The position numbers were made by a program, and so were the translations under genes. Shown here piece by piece: positions 16,478-64,000 of a stretch of 64,000 bases of DNA. The notes below the pieces were generated by a model that ran no database searches, was not told where the DNA came from, and saw only the letters and a program-made list of their open reading frames with translations. The stretch lies in NCBI GenBank assembly GCA_965204795.1, contig OZ242012.1:595639-659638 (forward strand). The letters are read 5' to 3'. Numbering within the stretch: the stretch's first letter is position 1; each line of letters begins with the position of its first letter. The DNA is from Thermodesulfobacteriota bacterium. Its GTDB lineage: Bacteria > Desulfobacterota_D > UBA1144 > Nemesobacterales > Nemesobacteraceae.

Positions 16478-16621
16478 GGTTTTGCCCGTTACTTCTCCGA
16501 TTCGCGAGTTCGAGCTTGCGGGCCGCTCCCGCGTCTTCATTTGCCTTGGTTGAACTTCCGCCTCGAGAAAGTCGGGGAAAACTTTACAAATTTGCATTTA
16601 TGTTCTATAATTGCAAACAAC

Positions 16622-17752
16622 ATGATAAAACGGACGGTTGAAAGCAGGCTTCTCCGCCTGGCGGGACAGTATCCCGTCGTTACGGTCACGGGGCCCAGGC
16701 AGTCGGGCAAGACGGTTTTATCCAGAAAATGCTTTCCGGAACATCTCTATCTCAATCTGGAGAAACCGGATACGCGCGAATACGCCAGGAAAGATCCCGT
16801 GGGCTTTCTCGCCCAGTCGGAGAAAATGGTTATAGACGAGGTTCAGCGCGTGCCCGACCTTGTTTCCTACGTTCAGGCCGCGGTCGATGAAAGCGGCGAA
16901 GCGGGACGGTTTATTCTGACCGGCAGTCATCAGTTCGGGCTGACCGAAGTGGTCTCCCAGTCGCTGGCGGGACGCACGGTGCTGATAACCCTGCTTCCGT
17001 TTTCACTGAGGGAGCTGGGAGATACATCTCCGTATGAAAACCTGATTTACAGGGGATTCTACCCTAGGATAATAGACAGGAAGCTGAACCCCACCGAGGC
17101 GCTTTCGTTCTACGTCGATACGTATGTCCGGAGAGATTTGAGAGAGATAAAGGAAATCAGGAACCTGAGCCGGTTCGAAGATTTTCTTCGGCTTTGCGCC
17201 GCCAGCGTGGGACAGATGCTCAACATGTCCCGCATGGCGAACGATGTCGGCGTCGCCGTAAATACCGTAAAGGCGTGGATTTCCGTTCTGGAAGCGAGCT
17301 ATGTTGTATATCTGCTCCGGCCGCATTACAGGAATTTCAGAAAAAGAATCGTGAAAACTCCCAAGCTTTACTTCTGCGACGTGGGACTTGCTTCTTATCT
17401 TCTGGACATAAAGAAGGTCGAGCACGTGAAGTCGCACCCGCTTCGGGGAATGCTTTTTGAAAATCTTGTCGTCGTGGAAAAAATCAAGCGGAAGTTCAAC
17501 AACGTCGAACGGCCTTCCCTGTATTTTTTCAGGGACAACACGGGCAACGAGGTCGATCTTCTGGAAGAAGAGGGAAGTCATGTTGTTTCCTACGAGATAA
17601 AAATGGCGAAGACCCTGGACTCGAACCAGTTCAGGGGGCTTAACTTCTACAGGAAGCTCAATCCCGAAAACAGCAGATCGGTTCTTGTTTACACGGGTTC
17701 CGAGAAGACAACCCGGTACGGGCACGAATGCCTGCCTTTCCGGCATGTCTGA
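16622..17752 (+). CDS. AAA+ ATPase of the COG1373 family (AAA_14 plus DUF4143-like C-terminus)
   Basis: Walker A TGPRQSGKT, Walker B MVIDEVQ, C-terminal YFFRDNTGNEVDLL motif. TATAAT-like element upstream. It sits on the left flank of a low-GC islet. Confidence 0.75.
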   Translation: MIKRTVESRLLRLAGQYPVVTVTGPRQSGKTVLSRKCFPEHLYLNLEKPDTREYARKDPVGFLAQSEKMVIDEVQRVPDLVSYVQAAVDESGEAGRFILTGSHQFGLTEVVSQSLAGRTVLITLLPFSLRELGDTSPYENLIYRGFYPRIIDRKLNPTEALSFYVDTYVRRDLREIKEIRNLSRFEDFLRLCAASVGQMLNMSRMANDVGVAVNTVKAWISVLEASYVVYLLRPHYRNFRKRIVKTPKLYFCDVGLASYLLDIKKVEHVKSHPLRGMLFENLVVVEKIKRKFNNVERPSLYFFRDNTGNEVDLLEEEGSHVVSYEIKMAKTLDSNQFRGLNFYRKLNPENSRSVLVYTGSEKTTRYGHECLPFRHV

Positions 17753-18473: not shown

Positions 18474-19625
18474 GTGAAAAAACACTTTTTCAGATCTCTT
18501 GAGATAGAGAATTTTCGCGGTATCAGAACCTCCAGAATCGACAACTTTGCGAGGGTCAATCTTTTTGTGGGCGAGAACAGCTGCGGAAAGACAACCATTC
18601 TGGAATCGCTGTTCCTTCTGGCGGCCATCCGGGACCCTAGCAGGATGGTTAACATTCAGAATTCCAGAGGAATATATCTTACGGAGCCCAGAGACTTGGC
18701 AGATTTCTTTTTCGAACAGAAGCATGAAAACAATCTGCGTTTAACCGGAACTCATGAATCCGGGAAGAGAGAACTGACAATCAACGCTTTATACAGAGAC
18801 TCGCGTGCTTCTCGAACAGACAGTCAGCAGGAAAATGGAAGCGGAAACAACCATATTCTCAAAGTAAACAACATGGATTCCAAAACGGATGACTGCCTGC
18901 TTGGATTGGGATACACATTCTCGGTTTCCTGCAACGGGGACGGGGGCCCCGACCAGCATAATTCCAAAGTTGTTGCGACTTGGAGCGGTTCTCCTGTCGA
19001 GAGGGCGAGATTCGAAACATATATTGACGAGAAATATAAAGAGAAATCTTTGAACAGCGTTGCCGTGATTAGAGGGTCAAAGGATTCATACGAACACCTT
19101 CCCGTTGACGGCATTGGTAAAATGCTTCAGGAAAAACGTAAAGATATTCTACTGGAAAGTCTTCAGAAGATTGATCCCAGAATCCAGGACATACAGGTCA
19201 GCACTGCAGGAGTTGTTCTCGCGGATATTGGAGTTAAAAGCTTCATTCCTTTGAATCTCCTGGGAGACGGATTGCTTCATATGGTCAATCTTGTTTCTCA
19301 TGTTGACGATACCAGGGGTGGAATTCTGATGATTGATGAATTCGGTTCGGGTTTTCATGTCTCCTGCGTTGAATACATCTGGAAAGTTCTCATAGAGCAG
19401 TCGGGAAAATACGACACACAGGTATTCATGACTACTCACAGCAAGGATGTGGTGGAAGGTCTGGCGGGCTTGCATGAACGGGAACCCGATCTTTTTTCCG
19501 AAGATGGGGACGACGTCGCGTGTTTTTATCTGGGGAAAAACAGCGAGGGTCGAGTGAAAGGATACAGATATTCTCCTGAGGATATAAAGCAAGTTCTGAA
19601 ATCAGACACAGATATTCGCCACTAA
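18474..19625 (+). CDS. OLD/PARIS-AriA-like ABC-type ATPase (AAA_15/AAA_21 family)
   Basis: GTG start. N-terminal LEIENFRGI, Walker A GENSCGKTT, Walker B ILMIDEFGSGFH, H-loop TTHS. 383 aa, low GC. Confidence 0.85.
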   Translation: MKKHFFRSLEIENFRGIRTSRIDNFARVNLFVGENSCGKTTILESLFLLAAIRDPSRMVNIQNSRGIYLTEPRDLADFFFEQKHENNLRLTGTHESGKRELTINALYRDSRASRTDSQQENGSGNNHILKVNNMDSKTDDCLLGLGYTFSVSCNGDGGPDQHNSKVVATWSGSPVERARFETYIDEKYKEKSLNSVAVIRGSKDSYEHLPVDGIGKMLQEKRKDILLESLQKIDPRIQDIQVSTAGVVLADIGVKSFIPLNLLGDGLLHMVNLVSHVDDTRGGILMIDEFGSGFHVSCVEYIWKVLIEQSGKYDTQVFMTTHSKDVVEGLAGLHEREPDLFSEDGDDVACFYLGKNSEGRVKGYRYSPEDIKQVLKSDTDIRH

Positions 19626-19626
19626 A

Positions 19627-20226
19627 ATGTCTCAGAAAGTGTGTATTTTTGTTGAAGGGAAGGAGGATTCTAATTTCCTGGAATCCTACGTTGGTTATCT
19701 GGGCTATGAACTGCCGGAAATAAGACCCATAGGCGGGAAAGACAATCTTAAAGGGAATCGTCTGGAGATTGCCAAAAAATTAGATGAAGAAGACGCAAGG
19801 GTGCTGATTGTATTTGACGCCGATGATGATTATGGGAAGACGAAAGATGAGGCAAAGAGAACTATCCAAGACAAGGTGCAGGTAAACGACGGAAATTCCC
19901 GTCTGGATTTTTTTCTTTTCCCCAACAATCAGGACTCGGGAAACCTGGAAGACCTGCTCGAAAAAATCATAAAGTCCGAACACAAGGGTATCTTTGATTG
20001 TTTTGAAGCCTACAAGGAATGTCTGACGGAGCGGGACCCTTCTTACCTCCATCCGGACAAGAAGGCTAAAATTTATACATACAAGCAATCTCTGGGAGCA
20101 GTGAGAGAAGGGAGAGAATATCATTTCAGTCCGAAATACTGGGAATTCGAGAACAGTTCTCTCGACCCGCTGAAAAGTTTTCTTTGCGAGAATTTTCGCA
20201 AGAGCGGTCTGGAAAAAGTACGATAG
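19627..20226 (+). CDS. Small Toprim-like protein (DUF4276/DUF4435-like by recollection), putative nuclease partner of the ATPase
   Basis: 199 aa. ATG is 1 nt after the ATPase TAA. Toprim-like acidic motifs CIFVEGKEDSNFL (conserved E) and LIVFDADDD (DxD). Confidence 0.6.
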   Translation: MSQKVCIFVEGKEDSNFLESYVGYLGYELPEIRPIGGKDNLKGNRLEIAKKLDEEDARVLIVFDADDDYGKTKDEAKRTIQDKVQVNDGNSRLDFFLFPNNQDSGNLEDLLEKIIKSEHKGIFDCFEAYKECLTERDPSYLHPDKKAKIYTYKQSLGAVREGREYHFSPKYWEFENSSLDPLKSFLCENFRKSGLEKVR

Positions 20227-32274: not shown

Positions 32275-33183
32275 ATGTGGCGATCTGGCGGGAAAATGGA
32301 ATTCGGAAAACTTAAGACATTGATTCGCAAAGAATCAAAAAGCGATGACAAGACCTTTGATGAATCTTCAGCCCGTATTCAGGAGAAGATATTTGCCTTG
32401 TCAAAGAAGCAGACAGTTCCGCTGTTGAAAAATATAGGAATTATTCCGGAATCGATTCATCATGATTCATCTGAGGAAAAATTGTTTGCCAAAGTTGCCG
32501 ATATTCTTTTAGCCAAGGCATTTCAGGAACTTGGACTTTCCGCGAATGTAAACGACGAACGTGCGAATTGCGCGGATGTGGTCGCGAAGAGTAAAATTCA
32601 TAAATATTCACTGGTCGCCGACGCCAAGGCGTTCCGCCTCAGCAGGACTGCGAAGAATCAGAAAGATTTTAAGGTTAAGTCTATGGTAGACTGGAAAGGC
32701 AGGCACGATTATTCGGTCTTGGTCTGTCCCTTCTATCAATATCCCAGGAATAGAAGCCAGATTTACGGTCAAGCCCTTGATGGAAACGTATGTCTTCTCA
32801 GCTGGGAACATCTGGTTCTTTTTCTGGAAAACAACATCAAAGAAACAAAAAGGCTCTCTCTTCGAAAATTGTGGAACATCAGCGACGAATTGTCGTCAAA
32901 AGTCACCGTGAAAAACAAGGACAGGAATACAAACTTTCATCAGGATGGTAACTTGCTGATACAAAAACATGTTGGATTAAAGGAAGATATTTTCGGCAGC
33001 GTGTTTGAATTATGTAGAAAAGTAACAGTTGCGCGAGGCAGGTCCGAGATTAAATTCTGGAAAAGCGAAATAGACAGAATAAATGGATTCACCAGGAAAC
33101 AAGCCATAACGGAACTATTGGACTCTATGAAAATCGGGAAAAAGATTTCCACTATTCAGAAATATATTGACTCACTAGCATAG
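32275..33183 (+). CDS. Candidate Type II restriction endonuclease (PD-(D/E)xK-like)
   Basis: 302 aa in a low-GC islet, immediately upstream of a DNA MTase. D-x(15)-VADAK arrangement (D...(D/E)xK). Confidence 0.5.
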   Translation: MWRSGGKMEFGKLKTLIRKESKSDDKTFDESSARIQEKIFALSKKQTVPLLKNIGIIPESIHHDSSEEKLFAKVADILLAKAFQELGLSANVNDERANCADVVAKSKIHKYSLVADAKAFRLSRTAKNQKDFKVKSMVDWKGRHDYSVLVCPFYQYPRNRSQIYGQALDGNVCLLSWEHLVLFLENNIKETKRLSLRKLWNISDELSSKVTVKNKDRNTNFHQDGNLLIQKHVGLKEDIFGSVFELCRKVTVARGRSEIKFWKSEIDRINGFTRKQAITELLDSMKIGKKISTIQKYIDSLA

Positions 33184-33192
33184 GAATCAAGC

Positions 33193-34149
33193 GTGAAATT
33201 CAAAGACAAGATAAACACCGTGATAAATGCCGACAGCATAGAAGAACTGGACTTGTTTCCCGATGAAAGCGTACACCTTATCCTGAGCGACATCCCCTAC
33301 GGTATTGGAGTTGATGAATGGGACGTGCTTCACGAAAACACAAATTCGGCATACCTGGGCAACAGTCCCGCCCAGCAGAAAGCGGGACCCGTATTCAAAA
33401 AGAGAGGCAAACCATTAAACGGATGGTCGGAAGCGGACAGACAGATACCGAGGCAATATTACGACTGGTGCATGAAATGGACGGCAAAATGGCTTCGCGT
33501 GCTGAAGCCCGGGGGCAGCGCGGTTGTATTTGCGGGAAGAAGGTTTGTCCATCGTTGCATCTGCGCTTTTGAGGACGCGGGTTTCACTTACAAAGACATG
33601 ATTGCGTGGCACAAGGAAAAAGCTCCGCACAGGGCACAGAGGATTTCCGTTGTTTACGAGAAAAGAGGCGACGAGTTTAACAGGGAAAGATGGGAAGGCT
33701 GGAGAGTCGGGAACCTGAGGCCGGTTTTCGAACCAATACTCTGGTTTTCCAAGCCGTACGCCATTGGCGGAACGATCGCTGATAACATGCTGGAACACGA
33801 AACAGGCGCGTTTAACGAAAAGGGTTTCCTGAAATATACGCATGCTCCCGACAACTGCATCTCCGTTGCCGCTGCAAAAAACGATACGGGTTTGCATCCA
33901 ACGCAGAAACCCCTGAAACTGATGAACGCGCTGATTGAGCTGACGACGAACGAAGACCACGTTGTACTCGACCCTTTCTGTGGAAGTGGTTCAACACTGG
34001 TTTCCGCTTACAATCTCGGGCGAAAGTTCATTGGAATTGAATCGGAGAAAACTTATTACGAGATTGCTTTTGAAAGAATTCGTTCAGTTGCCGACAACTT
34101 TGAACGCTCCCTCTTTAGCGAGATGCAGTTGCACGACCATGATTTCTGA
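33193..34149 (+). CDS. Beta-class DNA amino-methyltransferase (N6-adenine or N4-cytosine)
   Basis: Motif IV SDIPYG near the N-terminus and motif I VLDPFCGSGST near the C-terminus (circularly permuted beta order). 318 aa, low GC. Confidence 0.85.
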   Translation: MKFKDKINTVINADSIEELDLFPDESVHLILSDIPYGIGVDEWDVLHENTNSAYLGNSPAQQKAGPVFKKRGKPLNGWSEADRQIPRQYYDWCMKWTAKWLRVLKPGGSAVVFAGRRFVHRCICAFEDAGFTYKDMIAWHKEKAPHRAQRISVVYEKRGDEFNRERWEGWRVGNLRPVFEPILWFSKPYAIGGTIADNMLEHETGAFNEKGFLKYTHAPDNCISVAAAKNDTGLHPTQKPLKLMNALIELTTNEDHVVLDPFCGSGSTLVSAYNLGRKFIGIESEKTYYEIAFERIRSVADNFERSLFSEMQLHDHDF

Positions 34150-48971: not shown

Positions 48972-49397
48972 ATGGAAAAAAACGGTTCTCTTCATCACGT
49001 GGCCTTGGCGGTGAGGGACATCGCCGCGGCCGAGGAGCTTTACTCGGAACTGCTGGGTCTTCGGGTCGCGCACAGGGAGGTCGTGGCCGACCAGGGGGTC
49101 AGGACGTCCATGCTTCTTCCCCCGGGCGGCGAGGGCGCGGCGGTGGAGCTTCTCGAACCTCTGGACGAAAACTCCCCGGTTTCGAAATTCCTGGAGAAAA
49201 GGGGAGAGGGAATTCACCACGTGTGCTTTCTGACCGAAGACGTCGAGGCGTCGCTTAGAAGGCTGGAAAAAAAGGGAGTCAAACTCATAGACGAGCATCC
49301 GAGACCCGGGTCCTGCGGCACGGAAGTCGCCTTCATACACCCGAGGTCGATGAACGGAGTGCTCGTGGAACTCGCGCGGAAGACGGAGGGGCGGTAG
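48972..49397 (+). CDS. mce: Methylmalonyl-CoA epimerase (VOC/glyoxalase family)
   Basis: LHHVALAVRDI ... GEGIHHVCF paired VOC modules, 141 aa. Confidence 0.8.
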   Translation: MEKNGSLHHVALAVRDIAAAEELYSELLGLRVAHREVVADQGVRTSMLLPPGGEGAAVELLEPLDENSPVSKFLEKRGEGIHHVCFLTEDVEASLRRLEKKGVKLIDEHPRPGSCGTEVAFIHPRSMNGVLVELARKTEGR

Positions 49398-49431
49398 GTC
49401 CGCGCCAGCTTTTGCCGTCGGCCCCGCTTTT
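49386..49431. repeat. Left copy of an imperfect 45-58 bp direct repeat flanking the inserted cassette (contains mce stop codon plus a degenerate tatA 3' end)
   Basis: ggcggtaggtccgcgcCagcttttgccgtcggccccgctttt. Identical to 51776-51818 except one C/T; upstream of both copies there is a weaker gaag(a/g)... similarity. Confidence 0.8.
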
Positions 49432-49546
49432 CCCGAGTTCGGCGGTCTGGAAAAGTAACATACCGACATCACGCGATTTCATTTTTCGCGAGACGCTGCG
49501 AAACGCCGTTTCCGGATTTTTCAGGCGGTCTAATCCGCCGAACTCG
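49431..49546. repeat. 14-bp perfect inverted repeat enclosing about 88 bp at the left inner end of the cassette
   Basis: cccgagttcggcgg (49431-49444) and ccgccgaactcggg (49533-49546). Confidence 0.6.
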
Positions 49547-49579
49547 GGAGACGAGTAAAGCGCGGCATTGCCAAGGTCT

Positions 49580-50089
49580 TTACGCCAGCTTCAGTCTGCC
49601 TCCGCATTTGATCAATCTGATGGCTTCGGCTTTCCCGTGAAAACCCACCTTGCCGATACTCTTCAGTCTTGTCCTTTCCGCCTTGTTCGGCGACCTGCCG
49701 AAAACCAGGACGGGAAGGAATCTCGCTTTTATGTTCTCCGAAACGATCGTTTCCGCGAAACGGGCCCCGGCTTCAAGCTGCTTGACGACCTCGCCGGCTT
49801 TGTACCTGCCGCTTTTCAGTTCCAACGGCACTATCCAGCCCTTGTTCCCGGCACGGCCCGCCACGAAAAGATAATCGCAGCGGGGCCGGCCCTCGGGAAG
49901 CGGCGAACCCCGCTTGTCGAAATCGATAATCAATTGCGGGGTCGGCGTACTTTCGATCAGCAAACCGCAACCGTCTTTTTCGCACTTTCCACGCCTGCGC
50001 TCGATACACTTGCCGTCGACCTGCCGGCGAAACATCTCCGCGAGTTCCGTCACCGTTTTTGCTCCATTCCGCTGGAGATGTCGGCCCAC
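49580..50089 (-). CDS. Small Cys-rich protein, possible PD-(D/E)xK-like nuclease effector (second gene of cassette)
   Basis: 169 aa. Cys cluster (C-x7-C-x4-C), D(CDYLF) ... IVPLELKSG (D...ExK-like). Overlaps or immediately follows the ATPase gene. Confidence 0.45.
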   Translation of the reverse strand: MGRHLQRNGAKTVTELAEMFRRQVDGKCIERRRGKCEKDGCGLLIESTPTPQLIIDFDKRGSPLPEGRPRCDYLFVAGRAGNKGWIVPLELKSGRYKAGEVVKQLEAGARFAETIVSENIKARFLPVLVFGRSPNKAERTRLKSIGKVGFHGKAEAIRLIKCGGRLKLA

Positions 50090-51552
50090 TTGTTGTGCAG
50101 GGCGACGGCAACGTCGTCAAAATCCGTCGGAAACAGGCCGGATTCTTCGTCGAGAGGAATTTCCTTCACGACCGACCCTTTGGGCCGGCGCTTCCGCTCA
50201 AACAGCCACGCGCCCACCTGGTCGGGTCGCAGTGCTACGTCGTCCTTGTCTATTTTCTTTCTGGCAGACTTGGAAAGTTTGGACAAACGCACCAGGTTGG
50301 CGAGCTCTTCGAGCAGCCATTCGCTGTGAGTGGTGATCATTACCCTGACGCCGGAATTCACCACCGCCGCGATCTGCCGGGCGAACTCCACCTGCATGGC
50401 GGGGTGCAGGTGAGATTCCGGTTCTTCGACGATCAGGACATTTCCCGGAAGGACGATATGCCGAAGGTACAGCGCCACCGGGGCGAGTTCCGATACCATG
50501 GACGAGGCGTTCGTCAGAGGCATGTCCGCCTTCCATCCTTCCGGTCTGTAGGTGAAAACCGGAAAACCGGCCGCCGACCTGCCGACGCGCACCGACCCTC
50601 CGAGAACTCGGTTCTCGATCCGCTCGACCAGGTCGCTTCGGGATGCGCCCCGCCGCTTGCCGTTGGGTTCAATGCTGAAAAGCTGTCGAAGAAAATCCGT
50701 TATGACGCCCGAGGTCACCGGGTCCGGCCGCTGTCCCGTCGACGCGGAACTGATCAGTCCTTGTATGAAAGCCTTGTGCGTGGACATCACGCCGCCGCGG
50801 TCCGCCGGGAGATAGAACGCGGGAAGGTGCAAGGGACCGAATACTTCGGGCAGGTGGACGGCCGCCAGGTCAATGACAAGTTTCAAACACTCTTTCTCGC
50901 TCAGGTCGGTCATTGAAGACGCGGGGAACATCGCCAGGTCGGGCAGCTTTCCGACGCTGCCTGAATCGAGCCGCATCGGAGCGTTCTCGTCCAGGTCGAC
51001 GTCAAGTCCGGTTCCCCGCGAATCGATCGTCAGGACATGCGAAAGCTTTTCCGAATCGTCGGGAAGAGGCTTTCGGAAGACGACGCGCGCTTCGCCGCTC
51101 CCTTTACGGACCAGTTTTCCGGTCTCGCCGCCAAGTTCAAAACACCTGTCAAGTTCGTTGCCAATAGAGTCGCCGAGCTTGTTAAATCCTCTGAATACGG
51201 AACGGACCGTATCCGCGACCCGGGAGGGGACCGAAACATTCCGTTCGTCCGGCGAGCCCGGTCCTCCCGCAGCTATCAGTTCCGCCCATTTGACAAGATC
51301 GTCCCTAGCCTCCCCGCTTAACTTCGATGTTACTCCCTCCGTCGACGACAGAGCGGCGCCCTGAATCGCAGTGTGCGCGTCCAGGCCGAAAAACCTGTGC
51401 AACGCGTAGAGCAGAATCGCCAGATACGACTTGCCCGTGTTGCTCGGTCCCACGAATACGGTCAGGGGACGAAGGTCTATCTTCGCCCTGACAATGGGCC
51501 CGAAATCGTTCACTTCGAGCTCGGAGAAACTTTGGGGTGACGAGTTCTTCAT
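50050..51552 (-). CDS. AAA_15/AAA_21-type ABC ATPase (first gene of cassette)
   Basis: LEVNDFGPI N-terminus, Walker A GPSNTGKSY, Walker B LIVEEPESHLHP, H-loop TTHS. 500 aa from the internal ATG with GAGGAAG SD. The listed ORF extends to 51624. Confidence 0.8.
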   Translation of the reverse strand: MKNSSPQSFSELEVNDFGPIVRAKIDLRPLTVFVGPSNTGKSYLAILLYALHRFFGLDAHTAIQGAALSSTEGVTSKLSGEARDDLVKWAELIAAGGPGSPDERNVSVPSRVADTVRSVFRGFNKLGDSIGNELDRCFELGGETGKLVRKGSGEARVVFRKPLPDDSEKLSHVLTIDSRGTGLDVDLDENAPMRLDSGSVGKLPDLAMFPASSMTDLSEKECLKLVIDLAAVHLPEVFGPLHLPAFYLPADRGGVMSTHKAFIQGLISSASTGQRPDPVTSGVITDFLRQLFSIEPNGKRRGASRSDLVERIENRVLGGSVRVGRSAAGFPVFTYRPEGWKADMPLTNASSMVSELAPVALYLRHIVLPGNVLIVEEPESHLHPAMQVEFARQIAAVVNSGVRVMITTHSEWLLEELANLVRLSKLSKSARKKIDKDDVALRPDQVGAWLFERKRRPKGSVVKEIPLDEESGLFPTDFDDVAVALHNKWADISSGMEQKR

Positions 51553-51775
51553 GTCTTCACTTCCTCGTCCCGACATGCGTCGACCGGACCGACAACGACA
51601 CGAGTCGTTGGGCACTCTCGGCAAACGACGTCAATAGTTTAAACGGCTTCGCCTGATTACCAACAGTCTGCCGTTCCGGCCATGACGTTTCCTTGTTGCC
51701 CCGCGCTTCGCTCGCACTTTGCCATGACTGCTTGCTCCCGGCCTTCCGGCGAGCGGGCGAACCGAAGAAGGAAGA

Positions 51776-51818
51776 AGGCGGTAGGTCCGCGCTAGCTTTT
51801 GCCGTCGGCCCCGCTTTT
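51776..51818. repeat. Right copy of the direct repeat (contains the intact tatA 3' end on the minus strand plus a degenerate mce 3' end)
   Basis: ggcggtaggtccgcgcTagcttttgccgtcggccccgctttt. The reverse strand encodes ...GADGKS-stop of tatA. Confidence 0.8.
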
Positions 51819-51983
51819 TTCCCCGGCGCTCTCGGCCGGGTCGTCTTCCCTGAGAGACTTCCTGAATCCCCTTATTCCCCTGCCGAGGGAGGAGCCGATG
51901 TCCCCGAGCCTGCTGGGGCCGAAGATGACCAGCAGGATGGCCAGTATTATGGCCAGTTCCCATATGCCGAATTGTCCGAACAT
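51792..51983 (-). CDS. tatA: Sec-independent protein translocase TatA
   Basis: MFGQFGIWELAIILAILLVIFGPSRL, 63 aa. Confidence 0.85.
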   Translation of the reverse strand: MFGQFGIWELAIILAILLVIFGPSRLGDIGSSLGRGIRGFRKSLREDDPAESAGEKSGADGKS

Positions 51984-59069: not shown

Positions 59070-62000
59070 ATGAAATCCCGGCTCTCCCGCGTCGTTGCGA
59101 GCGTTCTGGTTGCGGCTCTCGCGCTTTTCTCGGTCGTCCTCGGTCCGGGCAGCCACGTCGCGGCCGCCGCCCAGCCGACCGTATCCATGTCGTCCCCCGC
59201 GGTCAGCGTGGGGGAGAGCGCGGGGACTGCGTCTGTCTCCGTTTCCCTTTCGGCGGCAAGCGGGCAGGCCGTGACGGTTCCCTACACGGTGTCTTCGGTC
59301 TCGGGCGACACTGCGACGGCTACCGACGACTACACCTCCGTGTCCGGCGGGAGTCTCACGATATCGGCGGGGGACACGGGCGGGACGATAACCGTGACGA
59401 TAGCCTCCGACCTGACCGACGAGCACGATGAAACGTTCACGGTGACGCTGGGCTCTTCTCCGACCAACGCGGCTCTGCACGCCACGGCGACCAAGACCGT
59501 CGTCACAATTACCGACGACGATGCCGCGCCTCGCATAACTTCAAACAGACCGGCCGTCAGGGAGGGGGCGTCGGGCACCACGACCACCATGACGTTCAAG
59601 GTGGGGCTCTCTCGTGCCAGCGGCAAGACGGTGACGATGAACTACTCCGATATTTCTGGGGGTGGTGGGTACGATTACACGCCGGTAACGGCCGGCACGC
59701 TTACTTTCAGACCGGGAGAAACCTCGAAGGACATAAATGTTTCCGTAATTGGCGACGGAACCGCCGAGACCGATGAGGATGTACTTCTCCTCTTGGATTC
59801 CCTGCAAAACGTCTTCTCACCCACCTTCAGAAGAGTCCTTGCTGGGAAGATATACGACGACGATAATGTGGGGAGAGTGCATTCAATCGAAATAGACCCT
59901 GATTCAGGAACACTAGGGGTAGAGACTACTCCAACCAGCGCTGAATTCACCCGTGCCGAAGACATTGATGTCGTTGTGAAATTCCGGGACGCTATCTCTA
60001 CTTCCTTCGATCAGATTATGACTGTCACCGGCAGGCCACAGTTGGCGCTGACCATCGGCAACGTCACCCGCTACGCAACGTATTCGGGTGTAGTGGATGG
60101 GGCAGCTTATAACGGAATTAGGTTTCGCTACACTGTGCAGGCCGCGGACAAGGACACCGACGGCATCTCCATTCCGGCCAACGCCATTAGGCTAAACGGC
60201 GGCACCATCCGTCTTCGCGACAGTACGTATGGCTCCGTCCAGCTGAACTCCCGCGCCGTTTCCTCCCGGCATACAGTGTCGGGCAGCACCCACAGTCAGG
60301 CCAGAATCTCCAGACTAGTGATTCTTTCTAATTCGTCGGGGCAGTATCGCCTCATCACTAGGCCGTCAGCTGCATTAGATGCAGAACCGTACTCTGAACA
60401 TATCATCCGTGTGATAGTCCATTTCAGCAAGAGAGTGCGATTGACCGTCGGCGCGAGTATAGCGCTGAACTTCGGCACTCACGGACAGAGGGGGCAGCGC
60501 AGGATGCGGGCGGGCGCCTCAAGTACATTTGTTAGATATATCATATTCTCATACAGGGTGACTGCGAGGGACCATTCCCCCGACGGCTTCGCCATCGGCG
60601 GCTCTCTGTACCTCGACCCGGGCGCCACCCTGCGCGACGCAAGCGGCGCGGACGCGTTGCTGCATTCTAGCGTATGGGCCCGAAAAAGTTCAAAAGTGAA
60701 CGCTGGTATCGGATTATTATGGAGGACTCTAGACTCCAACTGGCAGGATAATCAGGTCTACGTAAAAGACTCCCGAATTAGGCCTCTCGTTCTTCCCGGA
60801 GCGGGCGGCCACACCGGCACGCTGACCTACGAGCTGACGGGGCCGGGGGTACCGGGGGTACCGTGGGTAACCACCACGCTGACGCTGCCCGACGGTCTGA
60901 CCTACGACGCGAGCACCAACACCCTGTCCGGTACGCCCACCGAGACGGCGGCCCGGCAGCTCTACAAGTTGGAAGCTACAGATACCAGAGATGACGGTAC
61001 TACACCCGACATACCATACTACTTCACGATAGAGGTGAAAGACGACTCCACTCCGACCTTCGGCTCCGGCAGCATTCCGGCTCAGGAGTACACTCAGAAT
61101 TCTTCCCTCGGCACGTCCGCCGTTCCGGCGGTCATCTTCCCGGCGGCCACCGGCGGCGACGGCAGGCTGACCTACAAGCTGACGGGGCCGGGGACTACGG
61201 CCACCACGCTGACGCTGCCGTCCGGGATCACCTACACTCCTCCATTATCCACGAACACGACCAGCGGCGGCGCGCTCACCGGCGCGCCGACCACGTCCGC
61301 GTCGCAGGCGACCTACAAGCTGACCGCCACCGATGTCAACGGGTCCACGGCGACGCTTACGTTTACCATGGTCGTGGCGGAGGATTTTATGCCGTCGTTC
61401 GGCACCGCGACCATTGACGACCGGTCCTGGACACACCGCGTTGAAATCAGCCCGTTCACGCTGCCGGCAGCCACCGGCGGCAACGGGACCCTGACCTACT
61501 CCCTGTCGCCGAACCTGCCCGCCGGCGTAGTACGTAGCGCCGGCACCAGCAGGGTGAGCGGCACCCCGACCGGGGTCATGGCCGCCACGACCTACAAGTG
61601 GACGGCCACCGATGCGGACGGCGACAAGGCAGAGCTGACCTTTTCCGCCGGCGTGCTGCCCGTGGTGTCGCTGGCGTCCGGGACGGCGAGCGTGGGAGAA
61701 AGCGACGGGACCAAGGACGTGACGGTGTCTCTTTCCGCCGCGAGCGCCAGGGACGTGACGGTACCCTACACGGTGTCGTCCGAATCCACGGACACCGCGG
61801 GGACCGACGACTACACATCGGTTTCCGACGGGAGTCTCACGATATCGGCGGGAGACACGAGCGGGACGATAACGGTGACGGTGGCCTCCGACACCGCGGA
61901 CGAGACGGACGAGACCTTCACGGTGACCCTGGGATCTTCTCCGACAAACGCCGCACTCGGAACCACGACCAAGACGGTGGTGACGATAACCGACGACGAC

Positions 62001-64000
62001 GACCCTCCGACGGTGTCCATGTCGGCGGCCACGGCGAGCGTGGGGGAGAGCGCGGGCACCAAGGACGTGACGGTATCTCTGAGCGCCGCCAGCGGCAAGA
62101 CCGTGACGGTTCCCTACACGGTGTCGTCCGAATCCACGGACACCGCGGGGACCGACGACTACACTTCGGTTTCCAGCGGGAGTCTCCAGATAGCCGCGGG
62201 CAACGCGAGCGGGACGATAACGGTGACGGTGGCCTCCGACACCGTGGACGAGCCGGACGAGACGTTCACGGTGACCCTGGGATCTTCTCCGACAAACGCG
62301 GTTCTGCACGCCACGGCGACCAAGACGGTGGTAACGATAACGGACGACGACGCGGCTCCGACGGTGACGCTCTCCCTGGCCTCGAGCTCCATTTCGGAGA
62401 ACGGGGGCTCCACCACGGTCACGGCCGCTCTGAGCCACGCCTCCAGTCAGGACACCACGATAACGCTCCAGGCGGTTTCCGGTTTCTACACGCTGGGCTC
62501 GGACAAGACCATAGCGATTTCCGCGGGGCAGACGACCAACTCCTCCGACACGGCGACGATAAACGCCGTGGACGACAGCATAGACAACGTGACGGCGCGC
62601 ACGACGACGGTAACGGCCAGGGCGGCCAACTCCCAGGGAGCGGGGGCGGTGACGGGAGCCTCTCTCACGCTCACCGACGACGAGGCGACTCCGACGGTGA
62701 CGCTTTCGCTTTCCGATTCCTCGATTTCTGAGAACGGAGGCAGCGCGACGGTAACGGCCTCTCTTAGCGGAGAGTCGAGCGAGAAGGTTACGCTTACGGT
62801 GTCCGCGGCCGCGGTCTCTCCCGCCGTGGCGGGAGATTTTTCCCTGAGTTCGAACAAGACTCTCACCATAGCCGCGGGCGGCACTTCGAGTTCCGGGGCG
62901 GTGACGATAACGGCCAACGACAACACCACCGACGCCGCGGACAAGTCGGTCAGGGTATCGGCTTCGGTGAGCGGGGCGAGCGGGGCGGCGAATCCCTCGA
63001 ACGTCACTCTTACGATAACGGACGACGACGCGGCTCCGACCCTGTCGATTTCCTCGCCCAGCGTGACGGAGGGAGACAGCGGTTCGACCACCCTTACGTT
63101 CAAGGCGACGCTTTCGGCCGCCAGCGGCAAGACGGTAAAGGTGAACTACGCCGACGCCGGGACGGGGACGGCGACTTCGGGAACCGACTACACCGCCTTC
63201 ACTTCCGGAACTCTCACGTTCTCCGCGGGGGACACGTCGAAGGACATAGACGTCACTGTGACGGGGGACTCTCTCGACGAACCCGACGAGACTGTGGTCG
63301 TGACCTTGAGCTCGGCGACCAACGCGTCAATATCGGCCGCCACCGGAACGGGGACGATAACCGACGACGACTCCCCGCCCACGGTATCGATGTCGGCGGC
63401 CGCGGCGAGCGTGGGGGAGAGCGCGGGGACCAAGAACCTTACGGTGTCTCTTTCCGCCGCCAGCGGCAAGGCCGTGACGGTTCCCTACACGGTGTCTTCG
63501 GAGTCGGGCGACACGGCGACGGCGGGGACGGACTACACTTCGGTTTCCACAGGGAGTCTCCAGATAGCTGCGGGGAACACCAGCGGGACGATAACGGTGA
63601 CGGTGACATCAGACACCGTGGACGAAGACGACGAGACGTTCACGGTGACCCTGGGAACCCCGACGAACGCCGCCCTGGGAACCACGACCAAGACGGCGGT
63701 GACGATAACGGACGACGACGCGGCTCCGACGCTTTCCATCTCCTCTCCGAGCGTGACGGAGGGAGACAGCGGTTCGACCACCCTTACGTTCAAGGCGACT
63801 TTGAGCGCCGCCAGCGGCAAGACGGTGAAGGTGAACTACGCCGACGCCTCGACGGGGACGGCGACCTCCGGGACGGACTACGAGGCGATAACGGCCGGGA
63901 CTCTCACGTTCTCCGCGGGGGACACGTCGAAGGACGTAGCCGTGACGGTAAAGGGCGACGCTCTCGACGAACCCGACGAGACGGTCGCGGTGAAGCTGAG
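59070..64000 (+). CDS. Giant secreted repeat protein with Calx-beta and cadherin-like/putative-Ig (He_PIG-type) domains; adhesin-like. Runs past the right window edge, with over 1640 aa in the window.
   Basis: Signal peptide MKSRLSRVVASVLVAALALFSVVLGPGSHVAAAA. Many Calx-beta repeats (DDYTSVSGGSLTISAGDT..GTITVTIASD...DETFTVTLG). Three LTLP(D/S)G(L/I)TY...SGTPT Ig-like repeats around 60760-61650. By-eye translation found no stop to the window end; frame continuity not verified computationally. The ORF track lists none because no stop occurs. Confidence 0.8.
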   Translation, partial: MKSRLSRVVASVLVAALALFSVVLGPGSHVAAAAQPTVSMSSPAVSVGESAGTASVSVSLSAASGQAVTVPYTVSSVSGDTATATDDYTSVSGGSLTISAGDTGGTITVTIASDLTDEHDETFTVTLGSSPTNAALHATATKTVVTITDDDAAPRITSNRPAVREGASGTTTTMTFKVGLSRASGKTVTMNYSDISGGGGYDYTPVTAGTLTFRPGETSKDINVSVIGDGTAETDEDVLLLLDSLQNVFSPTFRRVLAGKIYDDDNVGRVHSIEIDPDSGTLGVETTPTSAEFTRAEDIDVVVKFRDAISTSFDQIMTVTGRPQLALTIGNVTRYATYSGVVDGAAYNGIRFRYTVQAADKDTDGISIPANAIRLNGGTIRLRDSTYGSVQLNSRAVSSRHTVSGSTHSQARISRLVILSNSSGQYRLITRPSAALDAEPYSEHIIRVIVHFSKRVRLTVGASIALNFGTHGQRGQRRMRAGASSTFVRYIIFSYRVTARDHSPDGFAIGGSLYLDPGATLRDASGADALLHSSVWARKSSKVNAGIGLLWRTLDSNWQDNQVYVKDSRIRPLVLPGAGGHTGTLTYELTGPGVPGVPWVTTTLTLPDGLTYDASTNTLSGTPTETAARQLYKLEATDTRDDGTTPDIPYYFTIEVKDDSTPTFGSGSIPAQEYTQNSSLGTSAVPAVIFPAATGGDGRLTYKLTGPGTTATTLTLPSGITYTPPLSTNTTSGGALTGAPTTSASQATYKLTATDVNGSTATLTFTMVVAEDFMPSFGTATIDDRSWTHRVEISPFTLPAATGGNGTLTYSLSPNLPAGVVRSAGTSRVSGTPTGVMAATTYKWTATDADGDKAELTFSAGVLPVVSLASGTASVGESDGTKDVTVSLSAASARDVTVPYTVSSESTDTAGTDDYTSVSDGSLTISAGDTSGTITVTVASDTADETDETFTVTLGSSPTNAALGTTTKTVVTITDDDDPPTVSMSAATASVGESAGTKDVTVSLSAASGKTVTVPYTVSSESTDTAGTDDYTSVSSGSLQIAAGNASGTITVTVASDTVDEPDETFTVTLGSSPTNAVLHATATKTVVTITDDDAAPTVTLSLASSSISENGGSTTVTAALSHASSQDTTITLQAVSGFYTLGSDKTIAISAGQTTNSSDTATINAVDDSIDNVTARTTTVTARAANSQGAGAVTGASLTLTDDEATPTVTLSLSDSSISENGGSATVTASLSGESSEKVTLTVSAAAVSPAVAGDFSLSSNKTLTIAAGGTSSSGAVTITANDNTTDAADKSVRVSASVSGASGAANPSNVTLTITDDDAAPTLSISSPSVTEGDSGSTTLTFKATLSAASGKTVKVNYADAGTGTATSGTDYTAFTSGTLTFSAGDTSKDIDVTVTGDSLDEPDETVVVTLSSATNASISAATGTGTITDDDSPPTVSMSAAAASVGESAGTKNLTVSLSAASGKAVTVPYTVSSESGDTATAGTDYTSVSTGSLQIAAGNTSGTITVTVTSDTVDEDDETFTVTLGTPTNAALGTTTKTAVTITDDDAAPTLSISSPSVTEGDSGSTTLTFKATLSAASGKTVKVNYADASTGTATSGTDYEAITAGTLTFSAGDTSKDVAVTVKGDALDEPDETVAVKL
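61650..64000 (+). repeat. Intragenic units of about 300-340 bp, up to about 90% identical to one another (Calx-beta modules) inside the adhesin gene
   Basis: For example, 63036-63330 versus 63708-64000 are nearly identical; 61650-61990, 61990-62330 and 63370-63700 are related. Confidence 0.75.

What the first reader, a model, noticed from the sequence alone, without database searches (positions are those of the whole stretch)
49386..51818. 2.3-kb two-gene cassette inserted exactly at the convergent mce/tatA junction, flanked by 45-58 bp direct repeats that regenerate both gene ends
A 42-nt stretch (ggcggtaggtccgcgc[C/T]agcttttgccgtcggccccgctttt) occurs at 49389-49431 and 51776-51818 with one mismatch, and weaker similarity continues about 15 nt further upstream in both copies. 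Copy 1 carries the intact stop of mce (plus strand) and a decayed copy of the tatA 3' end (tag changed to tgg on the other strand). Copy 2 carries the intact tatA C-terminus (...GADGKS-stop) and a decayed mce 3' end. This is the signature of a target-site duplication created when a mobile cassette integrated between two tail-to-tail genes whose stop codons originally overlapped. The payload (49440-51775) is only an ATPase gene, a small nuclease-like gene and a promoter region. No integrase or transposase is present, so the mobilising enzyme acts in trans or has been lost. Compact defence cassettes with att-like duplications and no recombinase are poorly described.
Basis: seen in the sequence. 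Interest (0 to 1): 0.85.

Follow-up and report, generated by a model that had tools for sequence, protein, structure and literature searches.

The report
Defence operon inserted with 42-bp target duplication
A two-gene anti-phage operon was inserted long ago between two tail-to-tail housekeeping genes of an uncultivated marine bacterium, duplicating 42 bp of the target so that both genes kept their ends; this kind of recombinase-free insertion has been described for restriction-modification genes since 2000.

Summary
A 42-nt direct repeat (49390-49431 and 51777-51818, 41/42 identical, only two copies in the window) brackets a 2,345-bp insert between convergent mce and tatA.

A sister lineage about 95% identical (L105) has the predicted empty site: one copy of the 42-mer, with the mce stop, 7 nt, then the tatA stop. 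More than 20 other Candidatus Dadabacteria species also have mce directly abutting tatA.

The cargo is an AAA_15/AAA_21 ATPase (PADLOC PD-T4-4_A, 3.6e-41) plus a 157-aa PD-(D/E)xK-like nuclease (PDC-M47B family). No recombinase is present in about 28 occupied contigs.

The cassette diverges in step with the flanking core genes across three lineages. That indicates one old insertion, inherited vertically.

- The repeats decay: four mismatches in lineage X, and partial deletions of the left copy in the S and T forms.
- One strain (L104) has lost the cassette exactly across the repeat.
- The same cassette family elsewhere has no flanking repeats.
- No other element uses this site.

The locus fits "insertion with long target duplication" (Nobusato 2000; Furuta 2010), here with non-R-M cargo. 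A decayed att-flanked element (CIME-like) remains a rival. The similarity claimed beyond 42 nt is not significant, and the ancestral stop codons did not overlap. This is a new member of a known kind, of moderate interest.

The parts
48972..49397 (+). mce (methylmalonyl-CoA epimerase, glyoxalase fold), left flanking core gene. Its last 8 nt, including the stop TAG (49395-49397), lie inside repeat copy 1.
   Evidence: Pfam Glyoxalase_4 at 2.6e-28. Homologues are named methylmalonyl-CoA epimerase by their sources. The RNase G-mce-tatA-glyS order is conserved in more than 20 Dadabacteria species.
49390..49431 (.). Direct repeat copy 1 (left junction). It comprises the mce end and stop, a 7-nt spacer, and a non-functional copy of the last 27 nt of tatA whose stop CTA has mutated to CCA.
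   Evidence: It aligns to the single copy in the empty site of L105. Sister lineages S and T have partly deleted it.
49431..49549 (.). 119-nt element bounded by a perfect 15-bp inverted repeat (arms 49431-49445 and 49535-49549). It starts exactly at the end of copy 1 and lies downstream of the nuclease gene.
   Evidence: I6. The region folds at -77 kcal/mol, z = -3.5. There is no Rfam match and no other copy in the window. The left arm and loop are absent in the S and T forms, and arm mismatches in L001, L003 and L110 are not compensated. It is therefore dispensable, and its role is unknown.
49580..50053 (-). 157-aa Cys-rich PD-(D/E)xK-like nuclease gene (PDC-M47B family). Its GTG start overlaps the ATPase stop (GTGA).
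50050..51552 (-). 500-aa ABC-type ATPase (AAA_15/AAA_21), the NTPase partner of the nuclease.
   Evidence: Pfam AAA_15 at 1.5e-19 and AAA_21 at 1e-10. PADLOC PD-T4-4_A at 3.6e-41 and PDC-M47A at 1.1e-31. More than 6000 homologues, and the ATPase-plus-small-protein pairing recurs in L093 and L094.
51553..51776 (-). Non-coding right end of the insert. It contains an orphan RBS plus ATGGCC (51673-51695) that matches the start of a GmrSD-family gene present here in some strains.
   Evidence: L002, L007 and L008 carry a 1.9-kb, 49-50% GC GmrSD_N gene whose ATG GCC start and upstream RBS are retained in the window. No consensus promoter was found.
51777..51818 (.). Direct repeat copy 2 (right junction). 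It comprises an exact copy of the last 8 nt of mce including TAG, the 7-nt spacer, and the functional last 27 nt of tatA with its stop.
51792..51983 (-). tatA (63 aa), right flanking core gene, on the same strand as the cassette.
   Evidence: Pfam TatA_B_E at 2.8e-16. The exact protein occurs on 21 contigs read.

Best explanation
This is the scar of one old insertion, not an active mobile element.

In an ancestor of a small clade of Candidatus Dadabacteria (lineages W, X and S, about 95-99% identical), a foreign nuclease-plus-ATPase anti-phage operon of the PD-T4-4 / PDC-M47 type landed between the convergent genes mce and tatA. It was probably accompanied at first by a GmrSD-type gene. These two genes were separated by only about 7 nt.

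The insertion duplicated 42 bp of the target: the last 8 nt of mce with its stop, the 7-nt spacer, and the last 27 nt of tatA with its stop. One complete copy therefore sits on each side, and both essential genes keep their native 3' ends. This is the pattern called 'insertion with long target duplication', first described for restriction-modification genes.

The biochemical step is inferred, not shown. I favour duplicative repair of a break: two nicks about 42 nt apart, or a replication template switch, with fill-in of both overhangs around the incoming DNA. I do not favour an integrase.

Since then the cassette has been inherited vertically. The repeats have no maintained function. They accumulate mismatches and deletions, but while similar they allow exact loss of the cassette by recombination or slippage across them. 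This happened at least once (L104).

The operon lies on the same strand as tatA and directly downstream of it, so it may be transcribed by read-through. It presumably acts as a nuclease-NTPase defence system.
For: - **Repeat.** It is real, unique and sharply bounded.
- **Empty sites.** L105 has exactly one 42-mer, and mce abuts tatA in more than 20 other species.
- **No mobility genes.** The payload ORFs are only the ATPase and the nuclease, and no recombinase domain is present. The same holds in about 28 occupied contigs.
- **Vertical descent.** Cassette identity tracks flanking-gene identity between lineages. W-X is about 96-97%, W-S about 95.3-95.6%, and the core genes 94-98.6%.
- **Repeat decay.** There are four mismatches in L110, five in the GmrSD haplotype, and an 11-nt plus roughly 113-nt deletion in the left copy in S and T.
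- **Precise loss.** L104 is 99.8% identical to occupied L103 on the left flank. Its junction equals the left part of the S left junction joined to the right-junction sequence.
- **Not a property of the cassette family.** Homologous cassettes at other loci have no flanking repeats. The 42-mer core is absent from IMG/VR and JGI contigs.
- **Literature match.** Insert under 20 kb, duplication over 30 bp, no mobility genes, unique repeats of 45-47 bp overlapping gene 3' ends in H. influenzae (PMC2853133).
- **Cargo.** PD-T4-4 is classed as a PD-(D/E)xK nuclease plus P-loop NTPase system (bioRxiv 10.1101/2025.07.10.664194).
Against: - The step that creates a 42-bp duplication is not known for any member of this class, so the mechanism is an inference.
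- A 42-bp identity block at the 3' end of a gene, together with an exact loss, is also what att sites of a tyrosine-recombinase element would give.
- The quartet analysis does not resolve whether empty lineage E (L105) is ancestral or itself a precise loss: 53, 63 and 26 sites support the three topologies.
- Only a 64-kb window and roughly 12-kb loci were available, so a trans-acting recombinase elsewhere in the 2.1-Mb genome cannot be excluded.
- The cargo is not an R-M system, so it fails the literal criterion used by Furuta et al. (2010).
Confidence: 0.58

Rival explanations
1. The cassette is a decayed site-specific integrative element, like a CIME or pseudo-SCC. On this reading the two 42-mers are attL and attR, left by a tyrosine-recombinase element that targeted the 3' end of tatA. 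The integrase module was later deleted, and excision such as that in L104 is catalysed in trans by a recombinase encoded elsewhere.
For: - The repeat length and its position over a gene's 3' end are typical of att identity blocks.
- The empty site has one copy.
- The loss in L104 is exact.
- The island was once larger, since it carries a relic of the GmrSD gene start, so further genes could also have been lost.
- CIMEs are defined as att-flanked elements that have lost their integration and transfer genes (PMC5704250).
Against: - No integrase gene was called in any of about 28 occupied contigs from three to four lineages, nor in the GmrSD-bearing variant.
- The site is empty in more than 20 other species and is never occupied by another element or cargo.
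- The core is absent from IMG/VR viral contigs.
- The repeats are not conserved as functional sites.
- Relatives of the cassette elsewhere have no repeats.
Confidence: 0.25
2. Campbell-type integration by general homologous recombination. A circular DNA carrying the cargo plus a copy of an mce/tatA junction, for example excised from a relative, recombined by a single RecA-dependent crossover with the chromosomal junction. That would duplicate the shared 42 bp.
For: - The geometry (junction copy, cargo, junction copy) is what a single crossover gives.
- 42 bp is, from general knowledge of E. coli RecA, near the minimal efficient pairing length.
- Marginal extra similarity appears beyond the 42-mer when the empty-site sequence is used (p = 0.05 and 0.085).
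- The GmrSD haplotype shows that recombination imports divergent segments at this locus.
Against: - It presupposes an earlier repeat-flanked copy in another lineage, so it only moves the origin problem elsewhere.
- The repeat boundaries are sharp, and the flanking similarity is not significant.
- The cassette co-diverges with the core genes, so no later transfer is needed.
Confidence: 0.1
3. The repeat is a chance match, a dispersed REP-like repeat or an assembly artefact, and the genes are simply native neighbours.
For: None beyond the a priori possibility.
Against: - Zero matches are expected by chance, and only two copies occur in 64 kb.
- No other long repeat of this kind is in the window.
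- The same structure appears in independent short-read and long-read assemblies from many samples.
- Empty sites exist in close and distant relatives.
Confidence: 0.01

Closest known systems
Insertion with long target duplication of restriction-modification gene complexes (Nobusato et al. 2000, from the reference list and my own knowledge; Furuta, Abe & Kobayashi 2010, PMC2853133)
   Same: A small nuclease-containing defence gene unit is inserted with no transposase or integrase. It is flanked by unique direct repeats longer than 30 bp that match a single copy in an empty-site relative. The published H. influenzae cases have 46-bp repeats overlapping the 3' end of a flanking gene. Here the repeat is 42 bp, overlaps two gene ends, and the insert is 2.3 kb.
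   Different: The cargo is a nuclease-NTPase system (PD-T4-4 / PDC-M47-like), not an R-M pair, although a GmrSD (Type IV-like) gene accompanies it in one haplotype. The host is an uncultivated Dadabacteria lineage. This locus also documents what happened afterwards: vertical descent, repeat decay and one precise loss.
CIME (cis-mobilizable element) and pseudo-SCC-type cassettes: att-flanked elements that have lost their recombinase (PMC5704250; SCC from my own knowledge)
   Same: Cargo bounded by direct repeats that include the 3' end of the target gene, with no recombinase inside and a single site in empty genomes.
   Different: No related intact ICE, IME or other element uses this site in any relative. 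No accretion or tandem arrays were seen, and no integrase remnant. The repeats are not conserved.
PD-T4-4 (Vassallo et al. 2022, PMC9519451) and the PADLOC candidate system PDC-M47
   Same: A two-gene operon of an AAA_15/21 ABC-type ATPase plus a small PD-(D/E)xK nuclease.
   Different: In E. coli, PD-T4-4 sits in a defence-enriched locus of an ICE-like element. Here it is a solitary islet between core genes. The nuclease matches PDC-M47B models and no PD-T4-4_B model. Anti-phage activity is untested.
Classical transposon target-site duplication
   Same: Direct duplication of the target flanks the insert.
   Different: Transposon duplications are typically under 10 bp, and the longest noted by Furuta et al. 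are 19-26 bp for IS1630. Here it is 42 bp, with no terminal inverted repeats spanning the two ends and no transposase.

Membership tests
Insertion with long target duplication (Furuta et al. 2010 criteria) | Both flanking repeats align to one copy at an empty site in a related genome | tested here: met
   L105 (about 95% identical) has a single GGCGGTAGGTCCGCGCTAGCTTTTGCCGTCGGCCCCGCT(C)TTT between mce and tatA. Homologous junctions occur in L012, L100 and more than 20 species.
Insertion with long target duplication (Furuta et al. 2010 criteria) | Target duplication longer than 30 bp | tested here: met
   42 bp, 41/42 identical.
Insertion with long target duplication (Furuta et al. 2010 criteria) | Insert shorter than 20 kb with no mobility genes | tested here: met
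   The insert is 2,345 bp. Its only real ORFs are the ATPase and the nuclease, and Pfam and PADLOC show no integrase or transposase. The 4.2-kb variant adds only GmrSD_N.
Insertion with long target duplication (Furuta et al. 2010 criteria) | Repeat sequence unique in the genome | tested here: inconclusive
   There are only two copies in the 64-kb window, and none in the JGI metagenome or IMG/VR contigs. The rest of the roughly 2.1-Mb genome could not be read.
Insertion with long target duplication (Furuta et al. 2010 criteria) | Inserted unit contains both R and M gene homologues | tested here: not met
   The cargo is an ATPase plus a PD-(D/E)xK nuclease, with no methyltransferase. This locus behaves like the class but lies outside its literal R-M definition.
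CIME / decayed site-specific integrative element | attL and attR direct repeats with a single attB in empty genomes | tested here: met
CIME / decayed site-specific integrative element | A related intact element (integrase, transfer genes) or other cargo at the same att site in relatives, or tandem accretion | tested here: not met
   About 28 occupied contigs carry the same cargo only. Two close empty alleles, the L100 lineage and more than 20 other species are empty.
CIME / decayed site-specific integrative element | A cognate recombinase acting on the repeats | not testable with these tools
   The whole genome is not available. Ten selected ORFs of the window showed no recombinase.
PD-T4-4 / PDC-M47 nuclease-NTPase defence system | ABC-type AAA_15/21 ATPase matching the system's A-component model | tested here: met
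   PD-T4-4_A at 3.6e-41 and PDC-M47A at 1.1e-31.
PD-T4-4 / PDC-M47 nuclease-NTPase defence system | Adjacent PD-(D/E)xK nuclease partner | tested here: met
PD-T4-4 / PDC-M47 nuclease-NTPase defence system | Protects against phage | not testable with these tools
   Requires experiment.
DNA transposon | Terminal inverted repeats at both ends, a transposase and a short target duplication | tested here: not met
   No inverted repeat links the two ends, there is no transposase, and the duplication is 42 bp.
Dispersed REP-like repeat | Many copies scattered in the genome | tested here: not met
   Two copies only.

The most novel reading that the evidence does not exclude
The nuclease-ATPase pair, or a host enzyme that recognises the tatA 3'-end core, actively makes the long target duplication and the precise excision. 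On this reading, non-R-M defence systems of the nuclease-NTPase type are themselves selfish, recombinase-free mobile units. That would extend Kobayashi's 'virus-like life cycle' idea for R-M systems to the newly discovered defence systems. The occupied (L103) and empty (L104) alleles within one sub-lineage would then be ongoing excision rather than a rare deletion.
Probability: 0.12. Interest if true: 0.7.

Novelty: new member of a known kind. Interest (0 to 1): 0.4.

Why it matters
How small defence islets with no recombinase get into and out of genomes is still not understood mechanistically. This locus is a clean natural example outside the R-M world and outside cultivated bacteria.

- The target, both junctions and an empty site are all known to the base.
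- The insertion is dated to one branch.
- Its aftermath is visible: repeat decay, hairpin-associated deletions, loss of an accompanying GmrSD gene, and one exact loss.

It shows that a 42-bp duplication can let foreign DNA enter between two tightly packed convergent essential genes without harming either. It also gives precise sequences for testing break-repair against site-specific models. It does not reveal a new kind of element.

Tried and rejected
- **Similarity beyond the 42-mer.** Apparent mce-like 'RTEEGRRR*' and tatA-like 'AELGKS' remnants are not significant.
- **Third repeat copy.** I looked for one between GmrSD and the ATPase in L002, L007 and L008, which would indicate tandem integration. 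None exists. GmrSD is a simple indel bounded by AAACTGTTG microhomology.
- **Integron attC reading of the 15-bp inverted repeat.** The GTTCGGC and GCCGAAC boxes are in the wrong order relative to R''/R', each mismatches the consensus at one position, and there is no intI. Rejected by inspection.
- **MITE reading of the 119-nt inverted-repeat element.** No other copy is in the window.
- **Structured RNA.** No Rfam match.
- **Terminator or promoter roles.** No consensus site lies in the non-coding ends.
- **dif/Xer (IMEX) site.** The 42-mer lacks the 11-6-11 dyad. Rejected by inspection and my own knowledge.
- **A tRNA target nearby.** None is present in relatives.
- **Junction duplication as a general habit of this genome.** The other small defence cassettes in the window have no flanking repeat of 24 nt or more.
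- **Junction duplication as a property of the cassette family.** L092-L094 and L113-L116 show none, apart from two diverged paralogous genes around the lone ATPase in L092.
- **Carriage on plasmids or phages.** No tblastn match at 1e-30 or 1e-20 respectively.
- **Searches for the core in JGI metagenomes and IMG/VR.** Nothing found.
- **Is empty lineage E ancestral or a secondary loss?** The quartet counts conflict: 53, 63 and 26.
Full report
**1. The observation**

The window carries a 42-nt direct repeat, GGCGGTAGGTCCGCGC[C/T]AGCTTTTGCCGTCGGCCCCGCTTTT, at 49390-49431 and 51777-51818. These are the only two matches in 64 kb even at three mismatches. None is expected in dinucleotide-preserving shuffles.

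- Copy 1 contains the true stop of a glyoxalase-fold gene (mce, 48972-49397, +).
- Copy 2 contains the true end of tatA (51792-51983, -).
- The single mismatch turns the tatA stop into TGG in copy 1.

Local alignment of the 30-nt flanks scores no better than random pairs (p about 0.16-0.28). It is only marginal when the empty-site sequence is used (p = 0.05 and 0.085). The duplication is therefore 42 bp with sharp edges.

**2. What lies between the copies (49432-51776, 2,345 bp, all on the minus strand, the same strand as tatA)**

- **ATPase.** A 500-aa ABC-type ATPase at 50050-51552. It matches Pfam AAA_15 and AAA_21, PADLOC PD-T4-4_A at 3.6e-41 and PDC-M47A at 1.1e-31.
- **Nuclease.** A 157-aa gene at 49580-50053 whose GTG start overlaps the ATPase stop.
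  - It has no Pfam or NCBIfam match.
  - Fifteen homologues share invariant D38/D40, D54, E72-x-K74 and Q86.
  - Twelve of the 15 family members hit PADLOC PDC-M47B.
- **System type.** PD-T4-4 is described as a PD-(D/E)xK nuclease plus P-loop NTPase system.
- **No recombinase.** No integrase or transposase ORF is present.
- **Left non-coding end.** It holds a 119-nt element bounded by a perfect 15-bp inverted repeat that starts exactly where copy 1 ends. It has no Rfam match and no other copy in the window.
- **Right non-coding end.** It has no consensus promoter. It does retain an orphan RBS plus ATGGCC (51673-51695).

**3. Organism and empty sites**

RNase G, upstream of mce, finds its closest relatives among Candidatus Dadabacteria / Thermodesulfobacteriota MAGs. 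In 22 of the 24 Dadabacteria species loci the order is RNase G, mce, then convergent tatA. In 18 of them the two stops were located 6-22 nt apart, and none has an insert.

Look-ups by exact protein found many contigs of the window's own population and its sisters. I distinguish these lineages:

| Lineage | Loci | Relation to the window | State |
|---|---|---|---|
| W | window, L001-L011 | same population | occupied |
| X | L106-L112 | about 97% identical | occupied |
| S | L095-L099, L103, L104 | about 95-96% | occupied, except L104 |
| E | L105 | about 95% | empty |
| L100 lineage | L100-L102 | about 84-87% (most genes) | empty |

L105 has precisely the predicted empty site...GGGGCGGTAGGTCCGCGCTAGCTTTTGCCGTCGGCCCCGCTCTTTTCCCC... 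This is one copy of the 42-mer, with the mce stop, 7 nt, then the tatA stop. The ancestral stops were adjacent, not overlapping. Overlapping stops (GCTAGC) occur in other alleles, L100 and L104.

**4. History of the insert**

Between lineages, the cassette genes are as diverged as the flanking core genes:

| Comparison | ATPase | Nuclease | Core genes |
|---|---|---|---|
| W-X | 96.8-97.1% | 96.3-96.5% | 93.8-98.6% |
| W-S | 95.3% | 95.6% | 93.8-96.8% |

This is what one ancestral insertion followed by vertical descent predicts.

The repeats are not conserved as functional sites.
- In L110 the two copies differ at four positions.
- In the GmrSD haplotype the right copy differs from the left at five.
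- In S and in the T form of X, the left copy has lost 11 nt. That loss fuses the mce frame to the palindromic stop of the tatA remnant.
- In the same forms, the left arm and loop of the inverted-repeat element are also gone.
- Arm mismatches in L001, L003 and L110 are uncompensated.

L002, L007 and L008 carry a 1.9-kb, 49-50% GC GmrSD_N gene between the right repeat and the ATPase. The window keeps that gene's RBS and first two codons. The indel is bounded by AAACTGTTG microhomology, so the original island probably included GmrSD, which was later deleted. In those three contigs the surrounding non-coding DNA is only 85-91% identical to W, while their ATPase is 98.6-99.2% identical (identity matrix). 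This indicates import by recombination from a more divergent lineage.

**5. Evidence for exact loss**

L104 (lineage S) is empty, yet it is 98.8% identical to occupied L095. It is 99.8% identical to occupied L103 over the 1-kb left flank, including an identical Mce protein.

Its junction is GGGGAGCTAGCTTTTGCCGT|CGGTGCCGCTTTTTCCCCC. That is the S-specific left junction joined to right-junction sequence within the 15 nt the two copies still share. The simplest reading is deletion across the repeats.

Whether lineage E is ancestrally empty or a second such loss is unresolved. Quartet counts with L100 as outgroup are 53 (W+S), 63 (S+E) and 26 (W+E).

**6. Is the duplication a property of the cassette or of the site?**

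The ATPase family is very large, with more than 6000 hits.
- Close relatives at other loci (L093, L094) keep the ATPase-nuclease pairing but have no flanking repeats.
- Four JGI loci have none either.
- A second, 54%/52% identical copy of the system sits in another island of the same 2.1-Mb genome, without repeats.
- No other cargo and no recombinase-bearing element occupies the mce/tatA site in any relative.
- The 42-mer core is absent from IMG/VR and JGI contigs.
- Plasmid and phage collections give no strong match to the ATPase.
- Other small defence cassettes in the window have no comparable repeats. These are AAA_14/DUF4143, AAA_15+DUF3226 and a HindIII-type R-M pair.

**7. Interpretation**

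The pattern meets the published description of 'insertion with long target duplication'. That description is a small nuclease-containing defence unit with no mobility gene, flanked by unique direct repeats over 30 bp that match a single copy in an empty-site relative. Published examples include 46-bp repeats overlapping a flanking gene's 3' end in H. influenzae (PMC2853133). The difference here is the cargo, a nuclease-NTPase system rather than R-M.

The authors of that work proposed that double-strand breakage is involved, and the mechanism remains unknown. I therefore commit to duplicative break repair, either staggered nicks about 42 nt apart or a template switch, as the most likely origin. 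This step is inferred.

The main rival is a decayed att-flanked element acting through a recombinase in trans (CIME-like; PMC5704250). It explains the position over the tatA 3' end and the exact loss. It is weakened by the complete absence of any related element, alternative cargo or recombinase remnant at this site, and by the unconstrained decay of the repeats. A Campbell-type homologous crossover only pushes the origin elsewhere. Chance, a REP-like repeat and an assembly artefact are excluded.

**8. Verdict**

The finding is real and its core inference is right: an insertion with a target duplication that regenerates both gene ends, and an empty site that exists. However, it is an old, fixed and decaying insertion of a kind described since 2000, not a newly recognised type of mobile cassette.

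Novelty: new member of a known kind, with non-R-M cargo and a candidate-phylum host. Interest: 0.4.

Noticed in passing
L002:6294-7997, also L007 and L008 (between the right repeat and the ATPase; window equivalent about 51673-51695): Some strains carry a 567-aa GmrSD_N (DUF262) gene at 49-50% GC inside the island. The window retains its RBS and ATGGCC start, and the indel is bounded by AAACTGTTG. The surrounding non-coding DNA in these strains is only 85-91% identical to the window, although the ATPase is 98.6-99.2% identical. This suggests recombinational import from a more divergent lineage.
   Followed up: partly
Nuclease gene in L001-L003, L006 and L008 (1-nt insertion at nt 45) and in L006, L007 and L009 (internal deletions or rearrangements from about nt 280): Within the window's own population the small nuclease gene carries lesions in several contigs, while the ATPase stays intact. 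This may reflect decay of the effector or tolerated N-terminal variation. Assembly error is not excluded for the 1-nt indel.
   Followed up: partly
L094:7001-9036 (contig ctg22184_139x_c, 2.1 Mb, the same genome that holds the window's ATPase cluster): A second, paralogous ATPase-plus-nuclease pair (54% and 52% identity) lies in another island, next to a reverse transcriptase (RVT_1) and a DEAD/ResIII helicase. It has no flanking repeats.
   Followed up: partly
window 16541-17752, 18474-20226, 32275-34149: Three further small defence-like cassettes lie among the core genes: AAA_14+DUF4143, AAA_15/21 ATPase + DUF3226, and a HindIII-type endonuclease with an N6/N4 methylase. Several have lower third-position GC. 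None has flanking direct repeats of 24 nt or more. An 18-nt GC-rich pair (31616 and 34594, 16/18) around the R-M pair is probably chance.
   Followed up: partly
L013:12133-18539 and L031:12131-16472, with similar intervals in L014, L018-L022, L025, L027, L028 and L049: In other Dadabacteria species the tatA-glyS interval, which is 55 nt in the window, is variable at 1-6.4 kb. It holds a subtilase, an epimerase and a steroid 5-alpha-reductase-like gene. L031 has a DruA-like/DDE transposase fusion. L013 and L014 have a stray glyS fragment (aa 111-183, 62-64% identical).
   Followed up: partly
L092:6318-9142: The closest non-Dadabacteria ATPase homologue with a long contig (69% identity) stands alone without the nuclease. 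It lies between two diverged paralogous genes of 150 and 161 aa on the opposite strand (72-76% nt identity over about 250 nt). Their spacing is 2369 nt, close to the 2387 nt seen here.
   Followed up: no
window 59147-64000: There are arrays of diverged tandem coding repeats of 340-350 nt (60-86% identity). They look like repeated domains of a large surface-type protein.
   Followed up: no
window 49431-49549: The perfect 15-bp inverted repeat with an 89-nt spacer begins at the exact end of repeat copy 1. Its left arm and loop are missing in two sister forms, with different deletion end-points. This is consistent with hairpin-stimulated deletion. Its origin and function are unknown.
   Followed up: partly
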